A DNA stretch of 34,231 bases. It comes from Octopus sinensis (Eukaryota). The position numbers and the translations under genes are program-made. The stretch lies in NCBI RefSeq assembly GCF_006345805.1, contig NW_021831701.1, forward strand, positions 1 through 34,231, read 5' to 3'. Below the pieces are notes generated by a model. That model saw only the letters and a list, made by a program, of their open reading frames with translations. It had not been told where the DNA came from and searched no databases. This document shows positions 736 to 25,924 of this stretch, piece after piece (positions within the stretch are counted from its first letter, which is position 1; each line of letters opens with the position of its first letter).

Positions 736-1226
736 AAATCTGTTAATTCAACACAAGCTATAAATTACAGAACTCAATACCCAAGTGTAGAGCATTCTCT
801 AATGCATTATAATATAGAATGTACTTAGTCCACTAATCCTAGCTACACATTTCCGATCGTTCAGCTGGTAATCCGAGCCTCCTTTTCCTTTGAAATATCT
901 CTCTTTCGACTATTATACCAACGTAATGAGGAAAGTGCTTATCTTGATGTTTATTTTAATGTATATATTAATATGTATAAAATCATGCACTCATGCTTAA
1001 ACAGATAGATGGAGAGAGAGCGTTTCCCCTTAGGATACTGACATGGGATTTGAAAATTCAGATTAGTTTTCCTAGACGACTGAAGAATTTAGTTTCAGGT
1101 TTTCCACAAAATCCTGTCTATTTCTGTACAATTTTTTTTATCACTTTTTCTTGCAGACATTCACTCACCTTTCCATATGTTAGCGTATACACGAGCATAC
1201 GAAAATATGTATATGACAATTGTGCA

Positions 1227-1276
<50 letters not shown>

Positions 1277-1344
1277 GGCCGCAGCTCTGAGCTGAAACTA
1301 GAATATATAATATATATAATATATATATATAATATATATATTAT

Positions 1345-1569
1345 ATCAGTGTTACTTCAAACATCACACCACAAAGAGAAAAAACAACAACGCGAGGACG
1401 TGGAACAAATATAGTATTATTGGACGCTCAGGAAGGAAGGAATGAAGGAGGTTTAACGTTTCGAGCGGAGCTCTTCGTCAGAAACCTAGGAAAAGGAAAG
1501 ATCCAAGAGAAGGGAAGACAGAGGGGGAAAATCGCCAACGGTACACAACGCGGTCACACATTTTGAATG

Positions 1570-1572
<3 letters not shown>
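1345..1572 (-). mobile_element. Short non-coding element between (TA)n tracts, probable Penelope-like terminal-repeat fragment
   Basis: Bounded on both sides by (TA)n and contains a minimal hammerhead motif. Family assignment is inferred from that motif. Confidence 0.65.
1449..1487 (-). ncRNA. Minimal type I hammerhead ribozyme motif
   Basis: Minus strand AGGTTT-CTGACGA-A-GAGC TCC GCTC-GAAA-CGTT-AAACCT: 6-bp stem I, CUGANGA box, 4-bp stem II, GAAA box, palindromic ACGT helix III. Confidence 0.8.
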
Positions 1573-1626
<54 letters not shown>

Positions 1627-2179
1627 GAGTGCCTATATATATATACACATAGCGCCCTGAGTTGCCGTTACCTTGTGCCTGCCCTGCGCACATAATATAG
1701 GTATAATGATATGCTGGCTTGGCTTGAAGTCATGTAAGAAATAGAAGCTCTTCATTCTATATCTACTTCACACTTGTATATTTGTTACGATTACCAGACA
1801 CTACTGCAAAAACCAAGAGAAAAACAAACAAATATTACCCGCCCCAAATGAATTAACTATTGAACTAATAACGGCATAAACTCAAGAAAATGCACAGACA
1901 CAAGTATCTTGTACGTGTATACAATTGTATAGACGGGTATTTTGAGAAAAGTATAGAGAGAATTACAGTGAGAATAAGTATTAAGAAATAAACATACTGA
2001 AATAGACTGAAATAGATTGAAATTAGTAAAAGTTGAAACTAAAGTGTTGAGGGTCTTAGGAGAGCTAATCTGAATTTCCTCTACCATATTGGTATACTAA
2101 GGGGAGTTGTCTCTACAGCTATGTGTCGAAATATTTATGTATGTTTTTTTTTAAATATATACATAGCTATTTCTCTCTC

Positions 2180-2224
<45 letters not shown>

Positions 2225-2457
2225 TTTTGTGTGTGCTTGTGAGTGTGTGTGCATTTGTGTGTTGTGAGTGTGTGTGCATTTGTGTGTTGTGTGTGTGTAA
2301 TTATGTTGGTAGTTAAATATGTATGTATATCCTCATATATTCGCAAATTCTGACACATATATATATATATATGCTTGTATATATAATTTATATGCAAATA
2401 CACACACCACACACACACACGCACAAACACACACACACATACACACACACAGACATT

Positions 2458-2491
<34 letters not shown>

Positions 2492-2817
2492 AAGCATACA
2501 TACATATCCATTTATACATGTTTGTAAATATATAAGTATATCTATCTATATATATTGCCTGTATCCTTCTCTCCCCCCTTTCCCCCTCTCTCTCCCCCTA
2601 TCCCCCCACTCTCTACATATATATATACATATATATACATCACATATACATGCAAACGTGCACACATACAGACACACACACACACACATATAATAGGAAA
2701 CAGTGAAAGTGTGAGGGGGCTAACAATGCCTACAAAGATTAGGCAAGTGTTGAAACAAGTACATAAATAGCTAAATAAATGAACAACGGAGTATACAATA
2801 GCTATATATGTCTGTAG

Positions 2818-2850
<33 letters not shown>

Positions 2851-2852
<2 letters not shown>

Positions 2853-3132
2853 ATAAGAAAGTTTGTTTGGTAAAGCACGTGGGTGAATATATAAGAAAAT
2901 AGAAAGTGTGAAAAAACGACAGAAGGCTTAAATGTTAAAAAATATATATATTTGTGTCAAAATGTCTGGAGAATATTGGAAAAATTTTTTCCTTTCCTTA
3001 AAATGACATAATTTTAAAATTTTTAAAGAAATTACCGGTTTCGCGTGTAGCTTTTCAAATTTCTTGTGACGTTATGTTTATATTGCATGGAATTATCGTT
3101 GTTTTTATTTCCAGGAGATTTCTAAATAAATA

Positions 3133-3135
<3 letters not shown>
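2851..3135 (-). mobile_element. Short non-coding element between (TA)n tracts, probable Penelope-like terminal-repeat fragment
   Basis: TA-flanked island carrying the hammerhead variant at 3026-3065. Confidence 0.55.
3026..3065 (-). ncRNA. Minimal type I hammerhead ribozyme motif, U3-A8 core variant
   Basis: Minus strand AAGAAAT-TTGAAAA-GC TACAC GC-GAA-ACCGGT-A-ATTTCTT: perfect 7-bp stem I, UUGANAA core, palindromic ACCGGU helix III, GUA cleavage triplet. Confidence 0.7.
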
Positions 3136-3165
<30 letters not shown>

Positions 3166-3420
3166 TTATATATATATAAACGGTTGGAGAGGTGGCTAAT
3201 TCGTGTCTGCAGCATTAAACACACGCGAGTTTGCATAACACAATATTTAACACTGTTAGAAAATTAAAAAGGAAAAGAATGAAAAAAAGAAGCAAATATT
3301 AAAGATAGCAGAAACAAACAAAAAATAGAATCTTAAAAGTAAAACCTGCGAAAATATGACGTAATGAATATTTAAATTTGTTTGCCAGTTTATCTAATCA
3401 AATGTTGTAAGATAGTACTT

Positions 3421-5922
3421 AGCCATTCTTATACACTTGTCTACATTTCTTTTTGCCTATTTGTCTTCTAGCATTTTCTTATACACTTGTCTACATTTCT
3501 TTTGCCTATTTGTCTTCTAGCATTTTCTTATACACTTGTCTACATTTCTTTTTGCCTATTTGTCTTCTAGCATTTTCTTATACACTTGTCTACATTTCTT
3601 TTTGCCTATTTGTCTTCTAGCATTTTCTTATACACTTGTCTACATTTCTTTTTGCCTATTTGTCTTCTAGCATTTTCTTATACACTTGTCTACATTTCTT
3701 TTTGCCTATTTGTCTTCTAGCATTTTCTTATACACTTGTCTACATTTCTTTTTGCCTATTTCTTCTAGCATTTTCTTATACACTTGTCTACATTCTTTTT
3801 GCCTATTTGTCTTCTAGCATTTTCTTATACACTTGTCTACATTTCTTTTTGCCTATTTGTCTTCTAGCATTTTCTTATACACTTGTCTACATTTTTTTTG
3901 CCTATTGTCTCTTTCTAGCATTTTCTTATACACTTGTCTACATTTCTTTTTGCCTATTTGTCTTCTAGCATTTTCTTATACACTGTCTACATTTCTTTTT
4001 GCCTATTGTCTTCTAGCATTTTCTTATACACTTGTCTACATTTCTTTTTGCCTATTTGTCTTCTAGCATTTTCTTATACACTTGTCTACATTTCTTTTTG
4101 CCTATTGTCTTCTAGCATTTTCTTATACACTTGTCTACATTTCTTTTTGCCTATTTGTCTTCTAGCATTTTCTTATACATTGTCTACATTTCTTTTTGCC
4201 TATTTGTCTTCTAGCATTTTCTTATACACTTGTCTACATTTCTTTTTGCCTATTTGTCTTCTAGCATTTTCTTATACACTTGTCTACATTTCTTTTTGCC
4301 TATTTGTCTTCTAGCATTTTCTTATACACTTGTCTACATTTCTTTTTGCCTATTTGTCTTCTAGCATTTTCTTATACACTTGTCTACATTTCTTTTTGCC
4401 TATTTGTCTTCTAGCATTTTCTTATACACTTGTCTACATTTCTTTTTGCCTATTTGTCTTCTAGCATTTTCTTATACACTTGTCTACATTTCTTTTTGCC
4501 TATTGTCTTCTAGCATTTTCTTATACACTTGTCTACATTTCTTTTTGCCTATTTGTCTTCTAGCATTTTCTTATACACTTGTCTACATTTCTTTTTGCCT
4601 ATTTGTCTTCTAGCATTTTCTTATACACTTGTCTACATTTCTTTTTGCCTATTTGTCTTCTAGCATTTTCTTATACACTTGTCTACTTTCTTTTTGCCTA
4701 TTTGTCTTCTAGCATTTTATTATACACTTGTCTACATTTCTTTTTGCCTATTTGTCTTCTAGCATTTTCTTATACACTTGTCTACATTTCTTTTGCCTAT
4801 TTGTCTTCTAGCATTTTCTTATACACTTGTCTACATTTCTTTTGCCTATTTGTCTTCTAGCATTTTCTTATACACTTGTCTACATTTCTTTTTGCCTATT
4901 TGTCTTCTAGCATTTTCTTATACACTTGTCTACATTTCTTTTTGCCTATTTGTCTTCTAGCATTTTCTTATACACTTGTCTACATTTCTTTTTGCCTATT
5001 TGTCTTCTAGCATTTTCTTATACACTTGTCTACATTTCTTTTTGCCTATTTGTCTTCTAGCTTTTCTTATACACTTGTCTACATTTCTTTTTCCTATTTG
5101 TCTTCTAGCATTTTCTTATACACTTGTCTACATTTCTTTTTGCCTATTTGTCTTCTAGCATTTTCTTATACACTTGTCTACATTTCTTTTTGCCTATTTG
5201 TTCTTTAGCATTTTCTTATACACTTGTCTACATTTCTTTTGCCTATTTGTCTTCTAGCATTTCTTATACACGTCTACATTTCTTTTTGCCTATTGTCTTC
5301 TAGCATTTTCTTATACACTTGTCTACATTTCTTTTGCCTATTTGTCTTCTAGCATTTTCTTATACACTTGTCTACATTTCTTTTTGCCTATTGTCTTCTA
5401 GCATTTTCTTATACACTTGTCTACATTCTTTTTGCCTATTTGTTTCTAGCATTTTCTTATACACTTGTCTACTTTCTTTTTGCCTATTTGTCTTCTAGCA
5501 TTTTCTTATACACTTGTCTACATTTCTTTTTGCCTATTTGTCTTCTAGCATTTCTTATACACTTGTCTACATTCTTTTTGCCTATTTGTCTTCTAGCATT
5601 TTCTTATACACTTGTCTACATTTCTTTTTGCCTATTTGTCTTCTAGCATTTTCTTATACACTTGTCTACATTTCTTTTTGCCTATTGTCTTCTAGCATTT
5701 CTTATACACTTGTCTACATTTCTTTTTGCCTATTTGTCTTCTAGCATTTTCTTATACACTTGTCTACATTTCTTTTGGCCTATTTGTCTTCTAGCATTTC
5801 TTATACACTTGTCTACATTTCTTTTGCCTATTTGTCTTCTAGCATTTTCTTATACACTTGTCTACATTTCTTTTTGCCTATTTGTCTCTAGCATTTTTTA
5901 TACACTTGTCTACATTTCTTTT
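3421..5922. repeat. 50-bp tandem satellite/minisatellite, about 50 copies
   Basis: Unit CATTTTCTTATACACTTGTCTACATTTCTTTTTGCCTATTTGTCTTCTAG repeated head-to-tail with no spacers; variants are mostly 1-2 nt deletions. Confidence 0.98.
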
Positions 5923-6267
5923 TGTTTTGTTTTTTGCTATTTGTTTTCTCAGCATTTTCTTTTATATTATTTGTTTGTTCATTTGCTTGTTTTCGTTTGC
6001 TTATGCGTGTGTTTGTAAGAAACTGCAAACAAATTTATAAATAACCAAAAATCTAATCATTCTTTTGATAAAAATTCAACTGGGGAATTGTTTGCCAAAA
6101 TTTGGAAAAATATTCTAAAATTGTACGCGGAACATATGGGAATAAGCAGACGTTAAAGCATAGTTATGATGACTGACAAATTTGTTTCATATTAATAATA
6201 TTAGATTCGAGAAGGAGTGTAGGGGATTGGCCGAAGAGGCTAGCACCACAAAGATAACAAGATAACT

Positions 6268-9919: not shown

Positions 9920-10080
9920 GCCACTGGATGAAGCCTCTAAGTAATCGCTCAATCTGCTAGAAACAACTGCTAAATTTTCCTTAAATCACATTCGAGCAAC
10001 TTTAAACTGGGCGGTTACTTTGAGAATTGTGCCAATGTAGTCCGTGACACAATATTTGAATAAAAAAGAGACGTGACAAA
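9920..10080 (+). mobile_element. Old interspersed repeat (family D); related copies near 17140-17320, 17730-17820 (minus), 29815-29970 and 33175-33225 (minus)
   Basis: Shared degenerate motif GGTC(A/G)CTC...TGC(T/A)AGAAA...GC(C/T)AAAT(C/T)TC.CT.AAATCAC, compared by eye. Confidence 0.45.
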
Positions 10081-10147
10081 AAGTGAGGACTTAGAGGCTC
10101 TCATCTCTGTCCGTTGTTAATGACGTTATTTTAATTATCACAGTAAA

Positions 10148-10305
10148 AGCGGTGCGCTGGCAGAATTGGGCCTTGTGTTCTGAGTTCAAATGCTGCCGAG
10201 GCCGATCTTGTCTTTCATTCTTTCCGGCCCGAGGAAATAGAAACCAGTTACGCTCTCAGATCGATCTAATTGACTTATCTCTTTCCCCCGAAATTTCAGG
10301 CATAA
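10148..10305 (+). mobile_element. Diverged, internally deleted SINE family B copy
   Basis: GCGGTGCGCTGGCAGAA...GTTCTGAGTTCAAATGCTGCCGAGG...CTTTCAT...ACCAGTTACGC. Confidence 0.65.
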
Positions 10306-10375
10306 TCAATCCAGTTACCCGTCGGTGCATCTCAAGAATAGCACTGACTACCTCGGCATTGGATGCGTCCGACAC

Positions 10376-10467
10376 CATGACAGTGATGTAGCCCAACATG
10401 AGAGCGATTTAGTCCGACATGATTGAAATATAGTCCGCCATGAGAGTGAAGAAGTCCGCCATGACAA
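10376..10467. repeat. Degenerate 21-bp tandem repeat, about 4.4 copies
   Basis: CATGA recurs at 10376, 10397, 10418, 10439 and 10460; approximate consensus CATGAGAGTGATNTAGTCCGC. Confidence 0.8.
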
Positions 10468-10530
10468 TTTTGTTTGCAATATGGTGTGGAATACTCCTTA
10501 AAGTTTCCATCCTCTCAGCAAATCTTCCAA

Positions 10531-10766
10531 CAACTTATTTCTTTACTGCCCACAAGGGGCTAAACACAGAGGGGACAAACAAGGACAGACAAACGGATTA
10601 AGTCGATTACATCGACCCCAGTGCGTAACTGGTACTGAATTTATCGACCCCAAAAGGATGAAAGGCAAAGTCGACCTCGGTGGAATTTGAACTCAGAACG
10701 TAGCGGCAGACGAAATACCGCTAAGCATTTCGCCCGGCGCGCTAACGTTTCTGCCAGCTCGCCGCC
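10531..10766 (-). mobile_element. Full-length young SINE family B copy with 10-bp target-site duplication
   Basis: Minus strand GGCGGCGAGCTGGCAGAAACGTTAGC...GAGTTCAAATTCC (B-box-like)...CTTTCATCCTTTTGGGGTCGATAAATT...GGGCAGTAAAGAAATAAG; flanked by AATCTTCCAA at 10521-10530 and 10767-10776. Confidence 0.92.
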
Positions 10767-11287
10767 AATCTTCCAAAGACTTGGCACACAAAATGTGATG
10801 TGCATCTTTTATGCACTGTACAATACGGTTCCAGTAGTCAAAAACGATCATTTTTATTTGTATCGACAATATATTTTTATTAAGGACAACCAAGAAAAGA
10901 TCTGCATCAAAGAGGTAGAACCAACTTCAGAACTGATAAGATACATCTATAAGAAATGGAAAAAAATATATATATCCAGATTTAAAGGTTCGAAAATAGT
11001 GATAACTAAAACACAAAAGGAATGTTTATAATTATAGGCGTCTTGGGAATAATTAAAAATTAATGCAAATACAAATAAATATATAGGCAAAAAAGTCCCA
11101 ACACTTGAAATGTGCACAATACACAGAAAATATAAACTGTTGTAGATATGCTGCATAGAGTGCTTTGAATGCATCAGAAATTTCATGAGCGAAAGCATAA
11201 TATTAGGATGCATACCCAAAGAATAGCATCTGCTGTCTGTTGTGCAGCGGAAGTAATGCAATAAAGGTGGGAACAGTAAAGAATATA

Positions 11288-11294
11288 CGATGTA

Positions 11295-11328
<34 letters not shown>

Positions 11329-11352
11329 TGGTGGTGGTGGTGGTGGTGGTGA

Positions 11353-11386
<34 letters not shown>

Positions 11387-11990
11387 GATGGTGATGATGG
11401 TGGTGATGATGATGGTGATGATGATGGTGGTGGTGGTGATGGTGATGATGGTGATGATTATGTAGAGGGGGAGGACGTTTGTGATGGTGGTGGTGGTAGT
11501 GGTGGAGGTGATGAAGGTAGTAGTAGTGGTGATGGCGATGAAGATGGTGTCGCTGATGATGATGATGATGATGATGATGACGACAATGATGACGATGATG
11601 ATAACGATGACAATGATGACAATGTTGATGACGATGATCATGATCATGATCATAATGACGATGATGAGGTTGATGACGACGATGATGATGATGATGACGA
11701 TAGGATAAGGATGATGTTTGTGGTGGTGATGGTGCTGGTAGTGCTGGTGGTGCTAGTGGTGATGAGGATAATGTCCATGATGATGATGATGACGACGATG
11801 ACAACGACGACGACGGCAACGAAGAGGATGATGCAGATGATGGTGGTGGTGATGATAACAACGATGGCTGCGGCGGCGGTGGTGGTGTTGGTGTTGGTGC
11901 AGGAGACTTTTGTTGCTGATTGGTAGTGGCGATGATGGTGCCCCTGCATGTGATGATGATGATGAGGAGGAGGCGGAGGAGGAGGTTGGG
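11288..11990. repeat. Compound trinucleotide microsatellite (GAT/GGT/GAC)n
   Basis: Direct inspection; source of the poly-His/Met/Thr pseudo-ORFs. Confidence 0.95.
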
Positions 11991-12439
11991 GTGGGAGAGT
12001 GAAAGGAAAGATGAGAAGGTCGAGGGAAAGGGAGAGGGTAAGGTGAAATAAGGATATAAAAAACACTTTTTTTATGCAGAGAGATATTATCTTCGAAGCA
12101 GGCAAGTTTTGATTGTATGACCTGATGTCACAGATGAATAACCAGATTTTTGCCTCCGCTTTTCCATGAAATGTTATTATAGATGGTGCGTGACGTGTGG
12201 GAAATAAAGTAAGGATGGCTTGTCAAAGAGTATAACTAACAATGTATCCTCTTTTCTCTCTTTTTTTTATTTTTATTTTTTTTATTTTTTTGTCTTTTGA
12301 TTAAACTGTTATCACTACCTGAAGGCACTCTTCATAGCGGCTGCCTTTTATCAAACGATGCATATCGATATTGCATGCCTCTGTATATATAAACATCTTT
12401 TCTTTTATGTATATATGTGTGTGTGTATGTGTTACGTTT

Positions 12440-12476
12440 ATACTATATATATATATATAAATATATATATATATAC

Positions 12477-12516
<40 letters not shown>

Positions 12517-12622
12517 TATGTACGTATATATATATATATATATATATGAATATGTACGTATATATATATTATATATATATATGAATATGTACGTATATAT
12601 ATATATATATATGAATATGTAC

Positions 12623-12676
<54 letters not shown>

Positions 12677-12708
12677 ATATGTGTGTGTGTATGTATATGT
12701 ATGTCTAT

Positions 12709-12753
<45 letters not shown>

Positions 12754-12947
12754 CGACACACAGTCATAGTGAAAAAGGATGTTATCTGAATGGCGGCATA
12801 CAGTTTTCACATATATTTTATTTCATTGTGAGCATAAAATCGAAATATCCATGTTTGAATATGTGAATCTATTTCGTTTATCTGTTCAACTGACAGGGAA
12901 TATTATGGGTTAATTTATAATTTCTATGTATATTTATTTTGATATAT

Positions 12948-13015
<68 letters not shown>
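12440..13015. repeat. (TA)n region containing four GAATATGTACG islands
   Basis: TGAATATGTACGTA repeated 4 times between about 12513 and 12625, separated by variable TA runs. Confidence 0.9.
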
Positions 13016-13019
<4 letters not shown>

Positions 13020-13077
13020 TGTTTATATCTTTTGGTAATGTCATCTTGAATCTAGGTTAAAACAAAACAAGGATAAG

Positions 13078-13143
13078 ATAAATAAAATAAAATAAAATAA
13101 AATAAAATAAAATAAAATAAAATAAAATAAAATAAAATAAAAT
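13078..13143. repeat. (AAAAT)n pentanucleotide microsatellite
   Basis: Direct inspection. Confidence 0.95.
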
Positions 13144-13327
13144 ATAGGATATAAATGAAAGCTAGAAAAAAAAACACAAGAAAAATATGATTCATACCGT
13201 ATTTCCTAAATCACATGCATCCATTAGTTAAGTGGAGTAAGGTCCTACATGCAGAATGACTATTGATCCTAAACCCAATTCTCAAAGCAGCAGCAGATGG
13301 TTGACGTTGTGTTATATACTACGACAC

Positions 13328-13413
<86 letters not shown>
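13328..13413. repeat. (CTA)n(TAA)n microsatellite
   Basis: Direct inspection. Confidence 0.95.
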
Positions 13414-13414
<1 letters not shown>

Positions 13415-13594
13415 TTGTTGCTGCTGCCGCTGCTACTAGTGTTGAAGCTGTCACAAATTATACACGTCTGTGCGGCCCTGGGCAGGTTTTTTCAGAAGGC
13501 TACCATTCACATACACACACACACACACACATGCACACATATACACAAACATTGACACATTTTCTGTATGCATTTATTTATCTATGCATGTATG

Positions 13595-13656
<62 letters not shown>

Positions 13657-13730
13657 CATACATATTTATATTCATGTATATATGTATATATACATATACA
13701 TGTACATATATATATATACATATATACATA

Positions 13731-13783
<53 letters not shown>

Positions 13784-15103
13784 CGAACACACACGCATAT
13801 ATATATATATCATCAAAAGTTTGGAAGCCTGCAGCTCCTTCTCACCTTCTCACCCTTAGTTTATATCCCTTTCTCTTTCATTCTCCCACCATTTCTTTTC
13901 GCTCCCTCCCTCTATCTCTCTCTTTCTCCCTCTCTCTCACTCTCTCTTTATTTCTGTTTCCCTCCATATGAGTATGTGTTGTTTCATTTTTTTTTTTTTG
14001 CTTACTGATATTACTTCTTGGATTTCGATCATCCCGAGTGTCGCTGTTAGAGGATTTATTTTATCTTCCTTTGACACTTTGCTTGTTTTTCTTTTTCTTT
14101 TCTGTACCTTTTAATGAATCATACACCAAACCGCGATCACGATTTCATTCCACGTCTTCGAATATTAGCAAATAATCACTCAATCTGCAACACTTCGCAG
14201 CCTACCGTTTACCACTTCTTAAATTATTTCTATATCTACAATTGCTTTAAACAAGGATACGCTGCACAGCCAAACTCACACACCACAATGTAACATGATT
14301 TTTGTCCTTGGGTAGCAACTGTTATTTCCTATTGGCGTACCCCTAGAAAGCATGGCATAAAGCTAATACTTCCTTCAAACCTTCCTTTTGTTATATGTAT
14401 TCATATCCCAAAGTATTCCTCTCAACACATGATTGTGATGCACCCCCACTACACCTGTTCATGATCAGAGATGCACATATTGTCAGCCACTAAGGGACTT
14501 GCTCAAGTGGTGAGGGTCAAGCTACTGACAGGCAAATCTGTGGTATTTAGCAGAATATTTGCTATAACGATATTTCTGCTTCAGCAACTCAATGCTGAAT
14601 CTGTCTAAAATGTAATGGAAAATCGGTCAGTTTCAAAGCATTGATGTCCGGGTCACACAAGGAAAGTTTGAAGAGAATAGTGATTATTTCTTTTGATTTC
14701 TAGCTAAAAGCAAATAGGAAATAACAAATCCTGACCAAAGACAAAAAAAAAACGAAAAATTTGTTAAACAGTGTAATATCATATTTAATCAATCAACAGA
14801 GAATTCAACACCGCTTTCCAAGAGTGCTTGAAACAATACTCAACGTGTTATTCAAACATTCAAATGCCCTACATTGCAGCAATCTGCCAAATGTTTTCGC
14901 TGTTTTTTTTATTCTTTGTTTGTTAAATATTTTACACTTTTGGTGTTTTTTTCTTTTTGCATATTTTTCCTGAAAGGATTTTTTTGCTGTTTATATTTTT
15001 GCATTTTATATTCCAGTGGGCAGCTATATATAACCTACCCGCCTTCGTATGTACAATATTGTCTGTCGACTAAAGACCGCCGCACTAATGACTCTACAGC
15101 ATA

Positions 15104-15320
15104 ATACATACATACATACATACATACATACATACATACATACATACATACATACATGCATACATACACATATGTATTTATCCCTCTATCAAACTATCTA
15201 TCTATATGTGTATATATATATAATTGTAAATGTATGAGTATATATGTATATGTATGTATGTATGTATCTATGTATGTATGTATGTATGTATGTATGTATG
15301 TATGTATCTATGTATGTATG

Positions 15321-15351
<31 letters not shown>

Positions 15352-15465
15352 GTATGCATGCATGTATGTATGCATGCATGTATGTATGCATGCATGTATG
15401 TATGCATGTATGTATGTATGAATGTATGTATGTATGTATGTATTTATGTATGTATGCATGTATGC
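15104..15465. repeat. (TACA)n followed by its reverse complement (TGTA)n
   Basis: (ATAC)n at about 15104-15170, then (ATGT)n at about 15230-15465. Confidence 0.95.
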
Positions 15466-16077
15466 AAAACTTACTGAGTAAATTCTCCTTGAATCGAGGT
15501 TAAATACATTCGGTAGGACTTACCCTGTATTGTGAGCTGGTGTATGTATGCATATGTCATTGTGTATACGTACATTAGTGAATTTAGATATGAGTATGTG
15601 GATGTATGTGAGCAACTATTAGTGCGTGTCTGACAGCATGTGTCTGCGCGAATACTGCGTGTATATGTATATTTGTATGATTACGTGTGCATTTGTAAGT
15701 ATTTGTGTGTGTGTGTGTGTGTGTGTGTGTGAGTAATAATGAGAGAAGAAAAGAGAGAGAGAGAGTTGTGTGTGTTGAAGCGAAATCCTGGAAACAGATT
15801 AAAGAATGAATTAACAGATGCGAGTATAAAAAATAAGAAATCTTTTTTTAAGTTTTCCGAATGGTGTATCATTACAAGAATGGAAAGCTAAAAGAAAAGG
15901 AAAACAAAAACGGCTTCGAATTACTTAAACTCTAAGAGTAAACAAACATTATTCAACCGAGTTACGGGTAGCGAGACGTATTCGTGTGCTATACCTTCGG
16001 CGGAACTACGGCACTAAGTAGTAGATAGATAAATAAACAAAAGTGACTAATATATGACAATAAATGATAATTCTTGA

Positions 16078-16575
16078 TATTGGTTTCAAATTTTGGTTCA
16101 AGGCCAATAGGTTCAGGAGAAGGGTATTCTATTACATCAATCCCAGTGCTCAACTGGTATTTATTTTATTGACCCAGAAAGGATGAAATGCTAAGTCCAC
16201 TTCGGCGGAGATTGAACTCAAACCCAATGTATCTTACCCGGCGTGCTAATCATTCTGCTAGCTGGACACCTTGTATAATCCTTGTTATTATCATTGTGTA
16301 AGTGCTGGCAATAGTTTGGCAGAAACGTTAGAGTGTTGGGCTAACTATCTTGAGTTATTTGTTCCGAATCAGTAGGTTCTCATTTCCAATCCTGCTGAGA
16401 TCAGCAATGCTATTCATTTTTCTTGAGTCGATGAAGTAAGCTATACCTCAGGTACTGATATCGATTTAACAATTAATGACTGATCTTCGCAAATAACCAA
16501 TGTAGAAGCATGATATAGTACAGCTCCTTTGATTCCCTTCCCACCAACAAGATATGTGGTTCCATGCGGGTAGAA
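16078..16575. mobile_element. Head-to-head pair of diverged SINE family B copies (about 16078-16272 minus; about 16305-16575 plus)
   Basis: CCAGTGCTCAACTGGTATTTATTTTATTGACCCAGAAAGGATGAAA...TTCTGCTAGCT on one side and TGGCAGAAACGTTAGAG...GTCGATGAAGTAAG on the other. Confidence 0.7.
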
Positions 16576-16961
16576 ATATGATGAATATGACGTATTTATA
16601 TCCTATGTTACTGACGACACCAGCTACGTAGAAATCGGCGATGACTATTTTGTTGCGACATCCACTGAATCATCTATGCATCAAATTATATGCGTTGTAT
16701 TATAGGTAAGATCTATCTGACGAGCTTCCACACATTTAACATCTATCCTTTTCAAAACAAGGCTTGGATCAACATAAGGTTGTAGTAAAAGATACGTGTA
16801 TTGATGATATATTGTGGAATCAATTCGTTATTATTGCGAAGGGAAACTATCTTTTTGAAGCATTCGAGTAGACTCCACATCTATGCAACATATATGTACA
16901 TACACACATTTATTATAAGTTATGCTTACCTGTCTTCTCTCACACACTCTCTCTGTCTTTA

Positions 16962-17030
<69 letters not shown>

Positions 17031-17364
17031 AAGTGTGTGAACCTGAGAAGGGAAAATGTAGAAGAAAATCAATTATTTTCTTTTACCCAAAGTCAGGAAC
17101 TTTTCAGCACCCTAAACTGTCGCTAGCCAACAAACGAATCCCTTATGTGGTCACTTGAACGACTAGAGAATGCGAATTTATCTCTCTTAAATCTCATTTG
17201 GTTGTTTATATATTGCAATGACTCATTACATAATGTAGTCTTTAAACAGGATGGTCCTAGATGGAATTCACTTTTGATCATAGCCTATTCATTCAAAATT
17301 GATTTGAGGTAAACAAAATCACCAACAGTAACACAGAAAATGATAATCGTCGCCATCAATTCCT

Positions 17365-17625
17365 TGTGCAGCGCGTGGCTTAGTATTTCGGGTGTTGGGT
17401 CCTGATCGTAAGATTGTGGTTTCGATTCCTGGACCGGGCGACGCGTAGTGTTCCCCAACAAAACACTTCATTTCACGTTACTCCAATCTACTCACCTAGC
17501 AAAAACTGAATAATCCTGCGACAGGCCGGCGTCCCATTCGGGGAGGGAATTTATACGCATGGGAATCGAGAAACCGGCTCTTAAAAGTGGGCATCACTCG
17601 AGAAGGTAACCTTTCTTTACTTTTT
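17365..17625 (+). mobile_element. Diverged tRNA-headed SINE (family C-related head) with V-SINE-like central domain
   Basis: GTGGCTTAGT...GGTTTCGATTCCTGGACCGGGCG head, then CCTGCGACAGGCCGGCGTCCC...GAAACCGG, shared with 25450-25520. The V-domain similarity is from recall only. Confidence 0.65.
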
Positions 17626-17869
17626 ACCATCAACTACATTCTATTGACAACAACAACGTTAACGAAAATCTATAACTTGCCGACAAGACAAAGCATAATT
17701 ATGGAAAGATAAAGATGATTATTTATGATCGTCTTTTAATATGAAGAAAGCAGCATGTATTTGAGAGAGATTTGACCACCATTTTTCTTGCAGATCAATA
17801 ATAATGTAGAGGTCGTCTCACAAGGCGATTATCTTTAGTACCTACGACTGATGAAACTGTCATCCGTAA

Positions 17870-18053
17870 TTAGTAGTAGTAGTCGTAGTAGCAGTAGTAG
17901 TAGTAGTAGTAGTAGTGGTAGTAGTAGTAGTGGTGTGTTTGTGGCTGTGGTTGTTGTGGTGGTGGTTGTGCTGGGGGTTGTGGTGGTTGTGGTGACCGTG
18001 GTAGTGGTTGTCGATGTTGTGGATGATGTCAACGTTCGTTGCTGTAATCGTTA

Positions 18054-18085
<32 letters not shown>

Positions 18086-18180
18086 TGTGCGTGTGTGTGT
18101 GTGCGTGTGTGTGTGCGTGTGTGTGTGCGTGTGTGTGTGTGTGTGTGTGCGTGTGTGTATGTGTGTGTGTGTGTGATGAT
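17870..18180. repeat. (AGT)n/(GGT)n/(GT)n compound microsatellite
   Basis: Direct inspection. Confidence 0.95.
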
Positions 18181-19225
18181 AATCCGATTAGAAACTGTGC
18201 TGTATTGTTTATTGATTGCTGTTTGGCCGAGGTATTGAGGTCGATAAGACTGTCAACGGGCAACGGATTTTAAAAATTATGATGACGACGACGACGACGA
18301 TGATTATGATGATGTTGATGATGATGAAATGACGAGGATGGTGGTGGTAGTGGCTGTGGTGGGGTTAGTGTTTTTACTGGAAATGACCATGTGGTGATTG
18401 ATGCTGATGATAAAATTACTAAGATTAACTGCTTTTATTTGTGTGTGTTTTTTTTTCTGTTTTGTCCCCCACTTTTGCAACAATGGTGAGGAGTATGCAC
18501 TTCAGAAAATGTATTATTAATTGTCATCTTATTTAGGCTTAGTATTAAAAATTAATTATCTCCATTGCTTAAACGATAAAAAAAAATATGTATTTTCAAA
18601 AAAATGAGAAGCATACACCACACATAATAAAAAAAAATATCTAAAGGAAATATCTCTCTTACCGGAAGGAAGGAAAAAAGTTGGGAGTGGGAAATAATAT
18701 TATAACACCGTTACTGACAGGAAGTACAAAGCGTAATCTGATTCATGGGATATAAATATCCGGAGATATTCGTCGCCATCATTAAATTAAGATTATTCAA
18801 ACGGTATCTAAGATCAAATCAGCCACAGAGTAAGATTATTCAATTGCATGTTAATGATAGGCGTGAACTTGGCCAGCAGAAAGGGAAAATGTTCTAAGAA
18901 TGTAGTTGTTAGGGTGAAAGGAAGTTTTCTTTGCTTTGGAAGAAAAGAATAATAACAACAACAATAACAAACCTCTTTCTAGAATAGACACAAGGACTAT
19001 ATACTCTTTAATCTCTTTTACTTGTTTCAGTCATTTTGACTGTGGCCGTGCTGGAGCACCGCCTTTAGTCGAGCAAATCGACCCCGGGACTTATTCTTTG
19101 CAAGCCTAGTACTTATTCTATCGGTTTCTTTTGCCGAACGTTTTTGCTAAGTTACGGTGACGTAAACACACCAGCATCGGTTGTCAAGTGATGTTGGGGG
19201 GACAAATACAGACACACAATCATAT

Positions 19226-19264
<39 letters not shown>

Positions 19265-19472
19265 GTGAAATAGAAAGATGAATAATCTTGTAGTGGATTA
19301 ATCAAAAGTTTAACCGATACCTTAGTAGCAAAAATCACAGCAGTGAACAGCACGGTTGGAGGTACAACCATCTGGCGTTGCACCGTGCGTTGGTGCGGAT
19401 AATTGAAATTAAAACATTATTGGTGAATTGAAGAAATGGAGCTGAACGCAGATTGACACAGAAATCGTTTTA

Positions 19473-19560
19473 TTCATCTACACGTGTTTCGAAAGGCCAC
19501 AAATTACCAAAATCGATTGAATAATGGGACCATATTGTGTCTTTCTCTTCAGGAAGAAAA
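19473..19560 (-). ncRNA. Hammerhead ribozyme motif (left arm of palindrome)
   Basis: Minus strand TTCTTC-CTGAAGA-GAAAG...CTTTC-GAA-ACACGTGT-A-GATGAATAAA. Confidence 0.7.
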
Positions 19561-19717
19561 AAGGAATCCGTTGGAAAAAAACAAAACAGAACAGAGGCAG
19601 AGCAAAAAACAAATCGAACTGTGCTCCTAAGAGCCATGGCGAAACTCTTAGGAGCACAGTTCGATTTGTTTTTTGCTCTGCCCCTGTTCTGTTTTTGTTT
19701 TTCCAACGGATTTCCTT

Positions 19718-19806
19718 TTTTCTTCCTGAAGAGAAAGACACAATATGGTCCATTATTCAATCGGATTTTGGTAATTTGTGCCTTTCGAAACACGTGTAGA
19801 ATGAAA
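19718..19806 (+). ncRNA. Hammerhead ribozyme motif with extended stem II (right arm of palindrome)
   Basis: TTTCTTC-CTGAAGA(19726-19732)-GAAAGACACAA...TTGTGCCTTTC-GAAA(19787-19790)-CACGTG-TA-GAATGAAA; palindromic helix III, predicted cleavage after the GUA ending at 19798, AATAAA at 19805-19810. Confidence 0.8.
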
Positions 19807-20230
19807 TAAAACGATTTCTGTTCAATCTGCGTTCAGCTCCATTCTTCAATTCACCAATTTATATATATATATATATATATATATATGCATATATACGACG
19901 GGCTTCTTTCAGTTTCCGTCTACCGAATCCACTCACAAGGCTTTGGTCGGCCCGAGGCTATAGTAGAAGACACTTGCCCAAGGTGCCACACAGTGGGACT
20001 GAACCCGGAACCATGTGGTTGGTAAACAAGCTACTTACCACACAGCCACTCCTACGCCTATAATATATGTATATTTTTTTCTTTGACGGATTTGGGAGCT
20101 GGTCGATTACATAGTCCCTAGTGCTCGACTGGCATTTATTTTATTATCGAACCTGAAAATCCACCGCAAAGGAAATTGAACCCCTAAGCGTTTTTTTCTT
20201 TCTTTTTTTTTTTCTGGCGTGCCAACGATT

Positions 20231-20622
20231 CTTATTTCTTTATTGCCCACAAGGGGGTAAACATAGAAGGGACAAACAAGGACAGACAAAGGGATTAAGT
20301 CGATTACAGTGCGTAACTGGTACTTAATTTATCGACCCCGAAAGGATAAAATGCAAAGTCGACCTCGGCGGAATTTGAACCCAGAACGTAACGGCAGACG
20401 AAATACCTATTTCTTTACTGCCCAAAAGGCGCTAAACACAGAGGGCACAAACAAGGACAGACAGACGGATTAAGCCGTATTTCGTCTGCCGTTACGTTCT
20501 GAGTTCAAATTCCGCCGGGGTCAATAAATTAAGTACCAGTTACGCACTGGAGTCGATGTAATCGTCGACTTAATCCGTTTGTCCTCTCTGTGTTTAGCCC
20601 ATTATGGGTAGTAAAGAAATAG
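20231..20622. mobile_element. Tandem plus inverted multimer of headless SINE family B modules
   Basis: 20231-20407 minus, 20408-20474 minus (3' part), 20477-20622 plus; all match 10533-10718. Confidence 0.85.
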
Positions 20623-20625
20623 GTG

Positions 20626-20686
<61 letters not shown>

Positions 20687-21080
20687 CAGTAGCAGTAGTA
20701 GTAGTAGTAGTTGTGGTAGTAGTAGTAGGAGGAGGAGTCTCACAGTATGGTGCGTCGTGATACCCCCCTTTACTCCCCTGAGATCTTATCATATTCTTGG
20801 CTTTCTCGTTTTCATGCTGTCTTCTCTGTATCTTCGTAGAACATCTGTTTCAACTCTCAGGTGAAACTGCATTCAAATATTTATCTAAACCTAGGTTTTT
20901 TGCTTACGACTTCCAGCGCTGTCATTACCTCCCACTGTCACCACTATCACCACTATCATCATCATCATCATCGTCGTCGTCGTCGTCATTAAAATCATCA
21001 CCATCATCATCATCATCTTCATCGTCATTCCCGTCATTAACATCATTCATTATTATTATTAGCTTACTATACTATTACAG

Positions 21081-21132
<52 letters not shown>

Positions 21133-21191
21133 TACTACTACTACTACTACCACAACCATCACCACTACTACTGCTGCTGCTGCTACTACTA

Positions 21192-21224
<33 letters not shown>

Positions 21225-21228
21225 TTGA

Positions 21229-21447
21229 ATAGTCTTGATTATTAATTCTGCCATGAAGGGAAACCATTGCGCCGGCGGATTTCCAAGATGTAGCCTCCCC
21301 CCATCCCCAAATCATTACAGATCCTCTTCCATGTTTAACTGTTGGAAGAAGGCAGTCTGGGTCAAATGCTTCTTTTGGCTGTCTCCACAGGTATACTCGG
21401 CCGGTGATCTGAAATAGGGCAAAGGATGACTCATCTGAGAAAATAAC
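21229..21447 (-). pseudogene. Tc1-family transposase fragment (first catalytic Asp region)
   Basis: VIFSDESSF...GRVYLWRQPKEAFDPDCLLPTVKHGRGSVMIWG...LHGRINNQDY matches the Tc1 signature (V.FSDES.F...VWR...E.....C..PTVKHGGGSVMVWG); embedded between microsatellites. Confidence 0.92.
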
Positions 21448-21639
21448 ATACAACACCTGTATATACATACACATATATACATACATGCATACAAAGATAT
21501 ATACGTGCGTATATATATATGCGTGTATATATGTATGTATATGTATATATTTCTATATACATACATGTATATATCTACACACACACATATACATATGTAT
21601 ACACGCACCGGTACAGCCATGAGTCGTCTAGCAACCGTC

Positions 21640-22111
21640 CATCCATCCATACACATATGCACACACATACATACGCACATACAAACACACATTCATACAC
21701 ACATGCTCACATACATACATATATACATGCATGCATACATACATACATACATGCAAACATACATACATACATACATACATACATACATACGTACGTACGT
21801 ACGTACGTACGTACGTACATACATACATATATACATACATACATTCATACATACATACATATATACATACATATATACATACATACATACATACATATGT
21901 ACATACATACATACATACATACATGCTCACATGCATGCATACATACATACATACATACATATATACATACATACATACATACATATGTACATACATACAT
22001 ACATACATTCATACATACATACATACATACATACGTGCATACATAAATTCACACATGCGTACATAGGTATACATGTACATACCCATCCGTACCCATGCAT
22101 ATTTCCATACA

Positions 22112-22142
<31 letters not shown>

Positions 22143-22145
22143 CAA
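21640..22145. repeat. (CATA)n/(CGTA)n/(CA)n compound microsatellite
   Basis: Direct inspection. Confidence 0.95.
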
Positions 22146-22342
22146 TCTCTACCATTTCATACACACATTTGATTGCTTAAAGCGTGCAACATTCAGTTTG
22201 TCGATGCGTTTATCTGTATATATATTTACGCGTTTTCGTACATATGCGCTGTAGGAATTTGCGTACGAATTCGGCCATCTTAACGCGCCTCCATCTATAT
22301 CTGTATAAGTATGTGCGTCTATCTGCGTTTCTATATCTCTAT

Positions 22343-23043
22343 ATGTCTGTGTGTCCGTGTGATTATAAACGGAGAAAATTTCTTATGTTTTCAACTGTTT
22401 AACGTTTTTCGTTTTGTTTCCATGACTTTTTATCTCTTTTTTTTGTTCCCCTCCACAAATTGTTATATTTCCTTTTTTATCCTATGTACCGTTTGAACAT
22501 GTGGAGGCGCAATGGCCCAGTGGTTAGGGCAGCGGACTCGCGGTCATAGGATCGCGGTTTCGATTCCCAGACCGGGCGATGTGAGTGTTTATTGAGCGAA
22601 AACACCTAAAAGCTCCACGAGGCTCCGGCAGGGGATGGTGGTGATCCCTGCTGTACTCTTTCACCACAACTTTCTCTCACTCTTACTTCCTGTTTCTGTT
22701 GTGCCTGTATTTCAAGGGACCGGCCTTGTCACTCTCTGTGTCACGCTGAATATCCCCGAGAACTACGTTAAGGGTACACGTGTCTGTGGAGTGCTCAGCC
22801 ACTTACACGTTAATTTCACGAGCAAGCTGTTCCGTTGATCTGATCAACCGGAACCCTCATCGTCGTAACCGACGGAGTGCTTCCACCATGTCTGTGTGTC
22901 CGTGTGATTATAAACGGAGAAAAATTCTTTTGTTTTCAACTGTTTAACGTTTTTCGTTTTGTTTCCATGTCTTTTTATCTTTCGTTTTTTTTCCCCCTTC
23001 ACAATTGTTATATTTCCTGTTTTATCCTATGTACCGTTTGAAC
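22343..23043 (+). repeat. 156-bp direct repeats (22343-22498 and 22888-23043) flanking a SINE
   Basis: Both begin ATGTCTGTGTGTCCGTGTGATTATAAACGGAG and end TATCCTATGTACCGTTTGAAC. Confidence 0.93.
22499..22887 (+). mobile_element. Full-length tRNA-derived SINE, family C
   Basis: TGGCCCAGTGG (A box) and GGTTTCGATTCC (B box) in a tRNA-like head; homologous to 25245 and 399-605. Confidence 0.9.
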
Positions 23044-23129
23044 CTATTACAGATGTATCGATACAGTCGACAGAGTTATTGCACTGGATGCTGCTGTACG
23101 CGTCTGTATGTGTTCTACTCGTTTTTTTC

Positions 23130-24160
23130 TGTTGTTGTTGTAGTTGTTGTTGTTGCTGTTGCTGTTGTTGTTGTTGTTGTTGTTGTTCTTGTACTTGTTG
23201 TTGTTATTGTTGTTGTCATCGTCGTCGTCGTCTTGGTGAATGTGAGGCAGGAGATGATGAGAAAACCGTTGGTTGGAAACGACAACGATGGCTATTATGA
23301 AGATTATAAAGTTGTTGTTGTTGGTGGTGGTGGTGGCGGTGGCGGCGGTTGTGGTGGGGGTTGTGGTAAAGGTGGTGGTGGTGGTAGTGGTGGAGGTGCT
23401 GGTGGTGGAGGTGAAGGCGGCGGCGGCGGCAGTGGTCGTGGTCGTCGTGGAGGTGGTGGTGATGGTGGTGGTAGTGGTAGCTGTGATAGTGATGGAGGTA
23501 GTGGTGATAGTGGTGGTGAAGGTGGCGGCGGCGGTGGCGGTGGTGGTGGTGACGGCGATGGCTGCGGTGGTGGTCGTGGTGGTGGTGATGGTGGTGTTGG
23601 TGATGGTTGTGGTGGTAGTGGTGACAGCGTTGTTGGTTGTGGTGGTAGTGGTGTTAGAGGTGATAGTGGCGGCGTTGGTAGTGGTGGTGGTGATAGTGGT
23701 GATGATGGTGGTGGGGGTGATGGTGGTGGTGGTAGTTGTAATGTTGTTATTGTGGTTGTTGTTATTGGTAGTGGTGGTGGCGGTGGTGGTAGTGGGAGTG
23801 GTGACGGTGACGGTGGCAGTCGTAGTGTTGGTGGCAATGACCAGAATGAGGATGAGGATGATGTAAGCATTGTTGTCGTTTGCGAGGGCATCGGTGGTAT
23901 CGATATCGATGGTGGTAGTGGTAATGGCGGCGGCGGTGGTGGTGGTGGTGGTTTTGGTAGTGATGATGGTGGTGGGGACGTGAGGTGCTGTGCTACTGGG
24001 GTTGTTGTCGGGGATCGTGAAGCTGCTGCTGATGATTCCGATAATTATGATTATGGTGATGATTCTACCAATGGTGGTGTCGGTGGCGATGAAGTCCATT
24101 CATGCTGATGTGGATGATGTGGATGATGGTGATGACGATGATGATGATGATGATGATGAA
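23130..24160. repeat. Long degenerate (GTT)/(GGT)/(GAT) trinucleotide region
   Basis: Direct inspection; open in several frames on both strands. Confidence 0.92.
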
Positions 24161-24362
24161 GAGGGAGAGGACGTGAAGGAGTAGGATTCCAGGTCTTATG
24201 TAATGTTTCCATTTGTTTTTCAAGATATCGACAGAAATTACTTCATATTATACACATATATGAGCGTGTGTGGTATGTATACATATATGCATGTATACAC
24301 ACAAACACATCTATATTATATATATATGTCTATACATACAACACATACATATATAAATATAG

Positions 24363-24421
<59 letters not shown>

Positions 24422-24483
24422 GGATATGTATATATATACGGATATGTATATATATATGTATATATATGTATATATATATATAT

Positions 24484-24516
<33 letters not shown>

Positions 24517-24531
24517 CTATATATATATATA

Positions 24532-24570
<39 letters not shown>

Positions 24571-25244
24571 ATATATGTATGTATGTATATACATATGTAT
24601 ATACATATGTATATACGTTGTATATATATTACACATACCCACTTGAGATAAGCGGTCCGTCTGTGAATAGTAAAAGAAAGAAAAAATTTGAATTGTTCTC
24701 TCTAAAGTAACTGTAGGAAATCTTATATTAGCGAAATGAGATTACTGGAAACTGAATATTGGAATGTATAAATATAATGAAAGAAAATTGATTACAGGTA
24801 GTACGATGCGTCGGCATACGTCGTCTTGAGCGGAAATTAGAGGAGAAGTTGAAATAATAACAATAACAATGATGATGATAATAATAATAATAATAATAAT
24901 ATAATAATAATAATAATAACAATAATAATAATAATATAATAATAATAATATAATAAAATAATAATATAATATAATAATAATAATAATAATGCGGTTTGAA
25001 TAGTATACAGGCACGACAAATTAAGCAGTTATGTCCACTGGACAATATGCCTACATCAGAACATCAAAACTGACAGCTTACTAAAAAAAGTTTCCCAACC
25101 CCTGCTTTAGTAGAGGAATCTTATCCACGATGCACGCAGTGGAACTTGTGGTAAGATTCTTACCCCACAGCCAGGCCTCCGCTTGTATCCAAACATACAT
25201 GGTCTTGCAATGACATGACGGGTTTTATTTGTGCATGACAAAGT

Positions 25245-25552: not shown

Positions 25553-25719
25553 TTTTTATGAATACATGGCTGTATTCTGAGATGCAATGAGGGTGACGAA
25601 ACAGTACCCAGTTTGTTTTTGAACATCAGTGTGTTTGTAAAATTACGTTCCTATACGCGAACACACTGGTACACAGAAACATATGTATCTATGTACATAT
25701 GTGCATATGCACATATAAG

Positions 25720-25762
<43 letters not shown>

Positions 25763-25890
25763 CAAATAAAAGACAGAAGATGGAATATACGAGAATATAT
25801 TATTAATTACAATTGTTTCGACACATCTAGTATCAACTCCACTTGTGGGACACACAAAAACTGGTTCAGGAGTATCCGGTGGTGCAGACG

Positions 25891-25922
<32 letters not shown>

Positions 25923-25924
25923 GT

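What the first reader, a model, noticed from the sequence alone, without database searches (positions are those of the whole stretch)
1230..3180. TA microsatellites as landing pads for several unrelated ribozyme-bearing mini-elements
Seen: (TA)n tracts alternate with short unique islands. Two hold clear hammerheads (1449, 3026). Three hold weaker remnants: 1277-1302 (GGCCGCAGCTCTGAGCT-GAAACTAG), about 2095-2140 (CTAAGGG, hairpin AGTTGT/ACAGCT, then GAAATATTTA) and about 2711-2762 (GTGAGGG, hairpin TGCCTA/TAGGCA, then GAAACAAGTA). Inference: a diverse community of TA-targeting, non-autonomous hammerhead retroelements that may both use and seed TA repeats. This is my best candidate for an under-described system in the window.
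Basis: inference. Interest (0 to 1): 0.7.

Follow-up and report, generated by a model that had tools for sequence, protein, structure and literature searches.

The report
Penelope retrotransposon ends in TA repeats
Two of the five proposed ribozymes are real minimal hammerhead motifs, lying in the short terminal repeats of two protein-coding Penelope-like retrotransposon families that sit in TA repeats all over this genome, a known kind of system; the other three are not supported as ribozymes.

Summary
Partly confirmed. Two minimal type-I hammerhead motifs are real, both on the minus strand: A (1487-1449, canonical core) and B (3065-3026, U3-A8 covariant core, fixed in its family). Neither is an orphan mini-element: each is the pseudo-LTR of a Penelope-like element (PLE) with reverse transcriptase, CX4CX2C linker and GIY-YIG-type endonuclease, found elsewhere in the genome (855 exact copies of B's motif; 7,851 of the 30-mer shared by A and a sister family). 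The three remnants fail: 1277-1302 is the 3' tail hairpin of a LINE, 2095 is one arm of an old local inverted pair at chance level, 2711 is single-copy. Hammerheads in PLE repeats and TA bias of PLEs are published. Two side results are worth a look: solo A copies stop at an initiator-like site, as if copied from the front of the mRNA, and 72 of 100 listed copies carry a U4C core change. 'Seeding' of TA repeats is not shown.

The parts
1230..1276 (.). (TA)n tract
1277..1302 (+). Last 26 nt of a non-LTR (CR1/L2-like, label recalled) LINE: 3' terminal hairpin; not a hammerhead
   Evidence: 1,048 exact copies; in 20 of 20 loci it follows a shared LINE 3' end and precedes an A run; upstream ORFs hit RVT_1 at 6.9e-16; 1 of 20 has a core-like word within 40 nt, in unrelated flank
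1303..1346 (.). (TA)n tract at the 3' end of element A
1351..1571 (-). Solo pseudo-LTR (about 220 nt) of PLE family A, starting at an initiator-like site and ending at the family's fixed 3' end
   Evidence: 88-93% identical copies; same sequence flanks an RT/endonuclease ORF on both sides in L218
1449..1487 (-). Minimal type-I hammerhead motif A, canonical core, extra A before stem II, palindromic stem III; predicted cut after 1455
1572..1626 (.). (TA)n tract at the 5' end of element A
962..1166 (-). Left arm of an old local inverted pair (68-71% identical to 1956-2165)
   Evidence: the shared pattern occurs only at these two places in the genome
1956..2165 (+). Right arm of that pair; holds the '2095 remnant'; both arms read CTAAGGG, the left arm lacks GAAA; no hammerhead shown
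2711..2762 (+). Single-copy hairpin; no family, no core; not supported as a remnant
2803..2850 (.). (TA)n tract at the 3' end of element B
2851..3125 (-). 5'-truncated 3' end (pseudo-LTR plus 36-nt tail at about 2886-2851) of young PLE family B
   Evidence: 98-100% identical copies; 23 of 24 other ends run on upstream into the element; pLTR-ORF-pLTR in L063; 811-aa open frame in L114
3026..3065 (-). Minimal type-I hammerhead motif B with U3-A8 covariant core and palindromic stem III; predicted cut after 3033
   Evidence: 855 exact copies, 98 of 100 listed U3-A8
3126..3178 (.). (TA)n tract at the truncated 5' end of element B

Best explanation
The two hammerhead islands are short ends of two unrelated, protein-coding Penelope-like retrotransposon families, likely pasted into existing (TA)n tracts by each family's own reverse transcriptase and endonuclease. 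Shown: family membership, ORFs, fixed 3' ends, TA flanks. Inferred: the GIY-YIG endonuclease nicks a TA tract; the nick primes reverse transcription at a fixed site inside the RNA, where the RNA has a short UA run; copying stops early, leaving a truncated 3' end (B) or, for A, runs from the 5' pseudo-LTR's initiation site to the RNA's 5' end and leaves a solo repeat. The hammerhead rides along as part of the repeat; it would cut only as a dimer or with protein help and is likely not needed for insertion. The neighbouring LINE tail is an independent insertion into the same soft target; the other two 'remnants' are not ribozymes.
For: B: RT (RVT_1 2.6e-8), CX4CX2C linker and GIY-YIG-like domain (Pfam 0.012, below cut-off), pLTR-ORF-pLTR with an inverted truncated copy in front; 64 of 100 listed motif copies lie in head-to-head pairs within 10 kb (counted by eye); 9 of 9 pairs inspected have the 36-nt tail on one end only, the PLE hallmark (PMC8557442, PMC11167929); both end points fall on short internal TA runs; 22 of 24 ends are followed by (TA)5. 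A: upstream ORF fragment in L166 led to ORF copies with YIDD RT, about 30% identical to B, CX4CX2C and GIY-YIG-like domain (0.014), and L218 with the A repeat at both ends; 22 of 25 solo copies with a recognisable 3' end have a TA 3' flank and 16 have TA on both sides, background 4.5% (5 of 30 dropped); two copies sit in (TACA)n instead, so the flank follows the target. Genome sample.
Against: No cleavage, RNA end or empty allele was observed. The GIY-YIG Pfam hits are below the curated cut-off. Monomer folds do not give the active hammerhead fold and the dimer fold of A by energy alone is not the hammerhead one. Clade (Neptune or Nematis) was not placed on a tree. In the one PLE studied in vitro, initiation needs no homology to the target (PMC11167929), so priming on the UA run is my inference. 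Solo repeats could also arise by recombination between two pLTRs (suggested in PMC3846280). TA tracts beside young B ends are longer than a length-biased null (median 45 vs 22 nt, n=17, P 4e-4; not so for A, 26 nt, P 0.38), which leaves room for tract lengthening.
Confidence: 0.85

Rival explanations
1. The islands are true non-autonomous retrozymes: short masters that are transcribed, self-cleaved, circularised and reinserted with borrowed PLE enzymes.
For: A is mostly found as a ~220-nt unit with both ends clustered; retrozymes are proposed to derive from PLE pLTRs (bioRxiv 10.64898/2026.07.22.740005, abstract and introduction); one other family in the sample (L126) is an ORF-less partial tandem of about 357 nt with an inverted arm, between TA tracts.
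Against: No tandem arrays: 1 of 100 listed A motifs has a same-strand neighbour within 400 nt, and it is of the other subfamily; the 5' end lies about 110 nt upstream of the cut site, not at it; the sequence after A's 3' end in ORF copies is the ORF leader, not the start of the next unit; 72 of 100 listed copies carry U4C; B runs into its own ORF in 23 of 24 ends.
Confidence: 0.1
2. The elements create or lengthen the TA tracts while inserting, by slippage of their telomerase-like RT on the short UA run at the initiation site.
For: Both families end on short internal TA runs; tracts at young B ends are long; four fully parsed B pairs have summed flanks of 52-88 nt against a null median of 40.
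Against: TA lies on both sides of 16 of 25 solo A copies, and copies in (TACA)n have TACA flanks; no excess length for A; the null includes old decayed tracts, a preference for long tracts explains B equally well; 5 of 9 pairs had one flank unparsed, so that test is inconclusive.
Confidence: 0.2
3. The three weak sites are decayed hammerheads of further families.
For: About 13 groups exist in 1.4 Mb, so old ones must decay somewhere; the 2095 site lies in an outward-facing inverted pair with AT-rich ends, the layout of PLE insertions.
Against: 1277 is a LINE tail; both arms of the 2095 pair share two core mismatches and one lacks GAAA, no third copy; 2711 has no relative at 3 mismatches in 25 or by DNA search.
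Confidence: 0.1

Closest known systems
Minimal hammerheads in pLTRs of metazoan Penelope-like elements (Cervera and de la Pena 2014, PMC4209133)
   Same: Type-I minimal motif, palindromic stem III, extra base after position 9 (A), U3-A8 variant (B), thousands of mostly single truncated copies, opposite-strand pairs, many sequence families per genome.
   Different: New families in another genome; B has a 2-bp stem II, shorter than the 7-8 bp described for Schistosoma; the TA link is measured here.
Neptune/Nematis-type EN+ PLEs and Naiads with (TA)n insertion bias (Craig et al. 2021, PMC8557442)
   Same: RT, CX2-5CxxC linker, C-terminal GIY-YIG with internal cysteines, pLTRs, inverted truncated copy, 30-40-nt tail at one end, microsatellite targets.
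   Different: Domain order is RT then endonuclease, so not Naiad; clade not placed by phylogeny; family A carries a ~2-kb 3' UTR made largely of CA/TACA-like repeats.
Poseidon element PAc of Anolis (Frangieh et al. 2024, PMC11167929)
   Same: Two fixed internal 3' end points that define the tail; AT-rich targets; hammerhead in the pLTR that is dispensable for insertion in vitro.
   Different: Here the end points coincide with short TA runs that match the target, whereas PAc starts without homology.
Non-LTR retrozymes (Cervera and de la Pena 2020, PMC7229834; Li et al. 2026 preprint)
   Same: Short (200-350 nt) non-coding units with a type-I hammerhead, related to PLE pLTRs.
   Different: A and B are not in head-to-tail arrays, have minimal and not canonical motifs, and belong to ORF-bearing families.

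Membership tests
Minimal type-I hammerhead (A, B) | Core CUGANGA (or U3-A8) and GAAA with stems I and II | tested here: met
Minimal type-I hammerhead (A, B) | Palindromic stem III allowing a dimer | tested here: met
   (4-nt and 6-nt palindromes); energy-only cofold gives the palindrome paired for B but a different fold for A
Minimal type-I hammerhead (A, B) | Self-cleavage | not testable with these tools
   needs an in vitro assay
Hammerhead remnants (1277, 2095, 2711) | Belongs to a family whose copies have an intact core | tested here: not met
EN+ Penelope-like element | Single ORF with RT followed by GIY-YIG endonuclease | tested here: met
   RT above Pfam cut-off for B only, GIY-YIG hits weak (0.012, 0.014) but motif visible
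EN+ Penelope-like element | Pseudo-LTRs flanking the ORF, inverted truncated copy, tail at one end | tested here: met
   B; A: pLTR at both ends in L218 and inverted copy in L224; tail not examined for A
Neptune or Nematis clade | CX2-5CxxC linker between RT and endonuclease | tested here: met
   CX4CX2C in both; feature as given in PMC8557442
Neptune or Nematis clade | Placement on an RT tree with reference elements | not tested
Non-LTR retrozyme | Head-to-tail tandem units each with a hammerhead | tested here: not met
Non-LTR retrozyme | No coding partner in cis | tested here: not met
Non-LTR retrozyme | Circular RNA intermediate | not testable with these tools
   no run on record as RNA, contigs only
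Non-LTR LINE 3' end (1277-1302) | Follows an RT ORF and precedes an A-rich tail; copies 5'-truncated at varied points | tested here: met
   CR1/L2 label from recalled motifs, no tree

The most novel reading that the evidence does not exclude
Solo pLTRs of family A are short cDNAs made when the RT starts at the internal site of the 5' pLTR and runs to the capped 5' end of the element's own mRNA, a strong-stop-like by-product that has put some 10,000-30,000 hammerhead motifs into TA tracts; and the larger lineages spread with a damaged core (U4C, and A6U in a more distant family) while keeping the stems, so the hammerhead fold serves these elements in a role other than cutting.
Probability: 0.3. 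Interest if true: 0.5.

Novelty: new member of a known kind. Interest (0 to 1): 0.27.

Why it matters
As found, it is an annotation result: two more PLE families and a measured TA bias in a repeat-rich animal genome. It matters a little more as material: B is young, has an 811-aa open frame and two mapped end points, so it is a ready substrate to test how a PLE endonuclease picks (TA)n and whether the RT adds repeats; A offers a natural comparison of intact-core and U4C lineages for the open question of what PLE hammerheads do.

Tried and rejected
Rfam scan: only microsatellite-driven miRNA hits, no hammerhead in the rows shown. DNA searches for the 2095 and 2711 islands: self only (the tool warns that this does not prove rarity), pattern searches likewise. 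First thought that B's core was decayed: rejected, it is fixed U3-A8. First thought that 1277-1302 might use the TA tract as stem I: rejected, it is a LINE tail. Thought that A had a separate non-coding master with a fixed start: weakened, since the native upstream sequence is the 3' UTR of the ORF-bearing family. RNA evidence: no RNA holder listed; contigs of four runs guessed to be RNA cover most of the B stretch, show no circular joint and cannot show ends or strand, so nothing is concluded; no read data were obtained for A. Extra G before the start site as a cap signature: 6 of 100 rows, no proper control, left as a hint. Summed-flank test for seeding: 5 of 9 pairs unparsed, inconclusive. 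Higher identity of the hammerhead than of its flanks between A and its sister family (0.92-0.94 vs 0.47-0.68) is partly by construction, since those copies were picked by the motif. Lunse et al. (PMC5785218) is not held; only its title was seen. Three look-ups in earlier scan findings returned nothing. No protein-database, structure or complex job was run: not needed for the verdict.

Full report
Setting. The window is a whole small contig (G000:C8172) of a 2.72-Gb genome, dense in microsatellites. Its SINEs look like those of octopuses; that label is recalled and comes from no call.

Observation. A strict minimal-hammerhead descriptor finds two hits in the window, both on the minus strand: A (core at 1481) and B (core at 3058) (relaxed version). 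In 1.4 Mb of block-shuffled DNA it finds 0-2 (10 shuffles). Rfam shows no hammerhead in the 150 of 172 rows listed. Of the three remnants only 2095 passes the relaxed descriptor, at chance level (8 real hits in the window against 5.2 in 20 shuffles; at least one hit in 16% of 200 shuffles of the region).

Family B. Forty best hits are 99-100% identical. The motif has 855 exact copies; 98 of 100 listed have U3-A8, the other two are one inverted pair with C3-A8. So the odd core is a compensatory variant, described for Schistosoma PLEs (PMC4209133), not decay. Longer loci show pLTR-ORF-pLTR with an inverted truncated copy in front. The ORF has RT (RVT_1 2.6e-8), a CX4CX2C linker and a GIY-YIG-like domain (0.012, below cut-off); L114, from the unbiased sample, keeps an 811-aa open frame. 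By eye 64 of the 100 listed copies form head-to-head pairs within 10 kb. Copies end at one of two points 36 nt apart, each on a short internal TA run; 9 of 9 pairs inspected have the longer end on one side only; 22 of 24 ends are followed by (TA)5 and 23 of 24 run upstream into the element, the window copy being the one truncated there. The window's island is thus a 5'-truncated PLE end.

Family A. Best hits are 88-93% identical. In the evenly spaced sample (140 stretches of 10 kb) A-like copies occur in 10 stretches, about 7 per Mb, roughly 19,000 genome-wide (9,000-36,000 by Poisson); 9 of 10 end at the same 3' point before TA. One copy with the 5' motif (L166, 1 of 30 fetched, 39 in the genome) ran into a PLE ORF fragment. 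Searching with it gave 201 candidates, 30 fetched, most with RT similarity to B at about 30%; of 12 extended, L218 has the A repeat on both sides of the ORF and L224 has it at the 3' end with an inverted copy; several others have it only in front. The ORF has YIDD, CX4CX2C and a GIY-YIG-like domain and is followed by about 2 kb of CA/TACA-rich 3' UTR shared between copies. A is therefore the pLTR of a second, older PLE.

Solo A copies have a sharp 5' boundary. Of 100 listed of 1,127 exact matches to the first 19 nt, 13 continue 11 or more nt into the native upstream sequence, 5 continue 4-8 nt and 82 stop within a base or two (by eye). Among 25 motif copies picked, 7 belong to a sister family with another 5' half; of the 18 others 14 begin between -9 and +14, 3 extend about 180 nt upstream and one is unclear (two pairs are local duplicates). 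The native boundary reads TCATTC, the arthropod initiator consensus (recalled). D. virilis Penelope has an internal promoter in its pLTR (PMC2377424, passages) and a PLE RT starts internally just after the pLTR (PMC11167929, main text). Inference: RT starting at the 5' pLTR's site and running to the RNA's 5' end gives exactly this unit. Recombination between pLTRs is the alternative but does not explain a boundary that most copies respect while full elements share sequence beyond it. No RNA data test this.

Core variants. The 30-mer around A's core has 7,851 exact copies; 72 of 100 listed have U4C, which includes the sister family. Within A the change is linked to a nearby site in 41 of 42 informative copies with either core, so it marks a subfamily. 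Three copies of a more distant family have A6U with a compensated stem I. U4C lowers activity in vitro but is tolerated in a viroid (PMC3088659, passage), and hammerhead mutants of PAc still insert. The window copy has the intact core.

Remnants. 1277-1302: 1,048 exact copies; 20 of 20 loci show a LINE 3' end before it and an A run after it; upstream frames encode RT. 11 of 20 are followed by (TA)4 against 6% background, so TA tracts also attract an element with no ribozyme. 2095: one arm of a 68-71% identical inverted pair with 962-1166, found nowhere else; both arms share the two core mismatches. It may be a very old PLE pair, but no hammerhead is shown. 2711: single copy.

In 1.4 Mb: 18 strict hits in about 13 sequence groups; 14 of 18 have (TA)5 within 250 nt downstream (7 upstream), background 12.4%, nominal P 4e-10, with two inverted pairs and some shared families among them; 9 of 18 lie in TA-flanked islands of 100-700 nt, which are 8.5% of the sample; 9 of 372 islands carry a hit. 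ORF partners were shown only for A and B; one group lies head-to-head with a PLE ORF (L259), one sits in (TAA)n, one (L126) is an ORF-less partial tandem and may be a real retrozyme-like family.

Use or seed. TA lies on both sides of 16 of 25 solo A copies and copies in (TACA)n have TACA flanks (5 of 30 dropped for lack of a 3' end): use of existing tracts. Tracts at young B ends are longer than a length-biased null, those at A ends are not; the paired test was incomplete. Lengthening is neither shown nor excluded.

Against the literature. Seen: PMC4209133 parts 1-2 of 4; PMC11167929 parts 1-2 of 4; the 2026 retrozyme preprint part 1 of 5; passages of PMC8557442, PMC13282606 (PLEs abundant and recently active in an octopus, no mention of hammerheads in the main text), PMC6765202, PMC3846280, PMC12602865 (68, nothing relevant), PMC3088659, PMC2377424, PMC7229834. 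Searches showed no paper on cephalopod PLE hammerheads in TA tracts, on a start-site origin of solo pLTRs, or on U4C PLE lineages; the library lacks most subscription papers and Repbase, Lunse et al. was not held, and I read no supplements (those of PMC4209133 and PMC8557442 may list such families).

Verdict. Real feature, known system: new members of the hammerhead-bearing, microsatellite-targeting PLEs. Interest 0.27; the side results could reach about 0.5 if confirmed.

Noticed in passing
window 19263-19860: A third hammerhead-bearing element between TA tracts: an inverted pair, each arm with a CUGAAGA core, long stem II and palindromic stem III, one arm with a ~155-nt longer end; relatives in at least 4 of the first 80 sample stretches.
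   Followed up: partly
window 25761-25892: TA-flanked truncated copy of another repeat family (4 relatives in 800 kb), with a GAAA and palindromic 8-mer on the minus strand but no clear core.
   Followed up: partly
window 3426-5924: 50-bp satellite, about 50 copies, 96% alike; no match in the first 800 kb of sample.
   Followed up: no
L218 (G000:C1:95863500-95870000) and L214-L225: Family A's autonomous form has a ~2-kb 3' UTR built largely of CA/TACA-like repeats with shared unique islands; long copies would spread such repeats.
   Followed up: partly
L166, L009, L016, L186, L190: Five copies join different points of the ORF's first part directly to the start of the A repeat, as if the RT jumped template at the RNA's 5' end.
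   Followed up: partly
L126:410-1460: ORF-less element with a 357-nt partial tandem, U3-A8 hammerhead, inverted arm and TA flanks: a candidate true retrozyme-like PLE derivative.
   Followed up: partly
L274 and relatives: A hammerhead family that lies in (TAA)n tracts rather than (TA)n, suggesting family-specific microsatellite targets.
   Followed up: no
G000:C1:133404096 and 133406556: Both arms of one B inverted pair share a private core change, as expected if both arms come from one template.
   Followed up: no
window 30540-30790 and 32240-32600: Two stretches flanked by (TAA)n that resemble each other and read like 3' ends of an R2/R4-type LINE (recalled resemblance).
   Followed up: no
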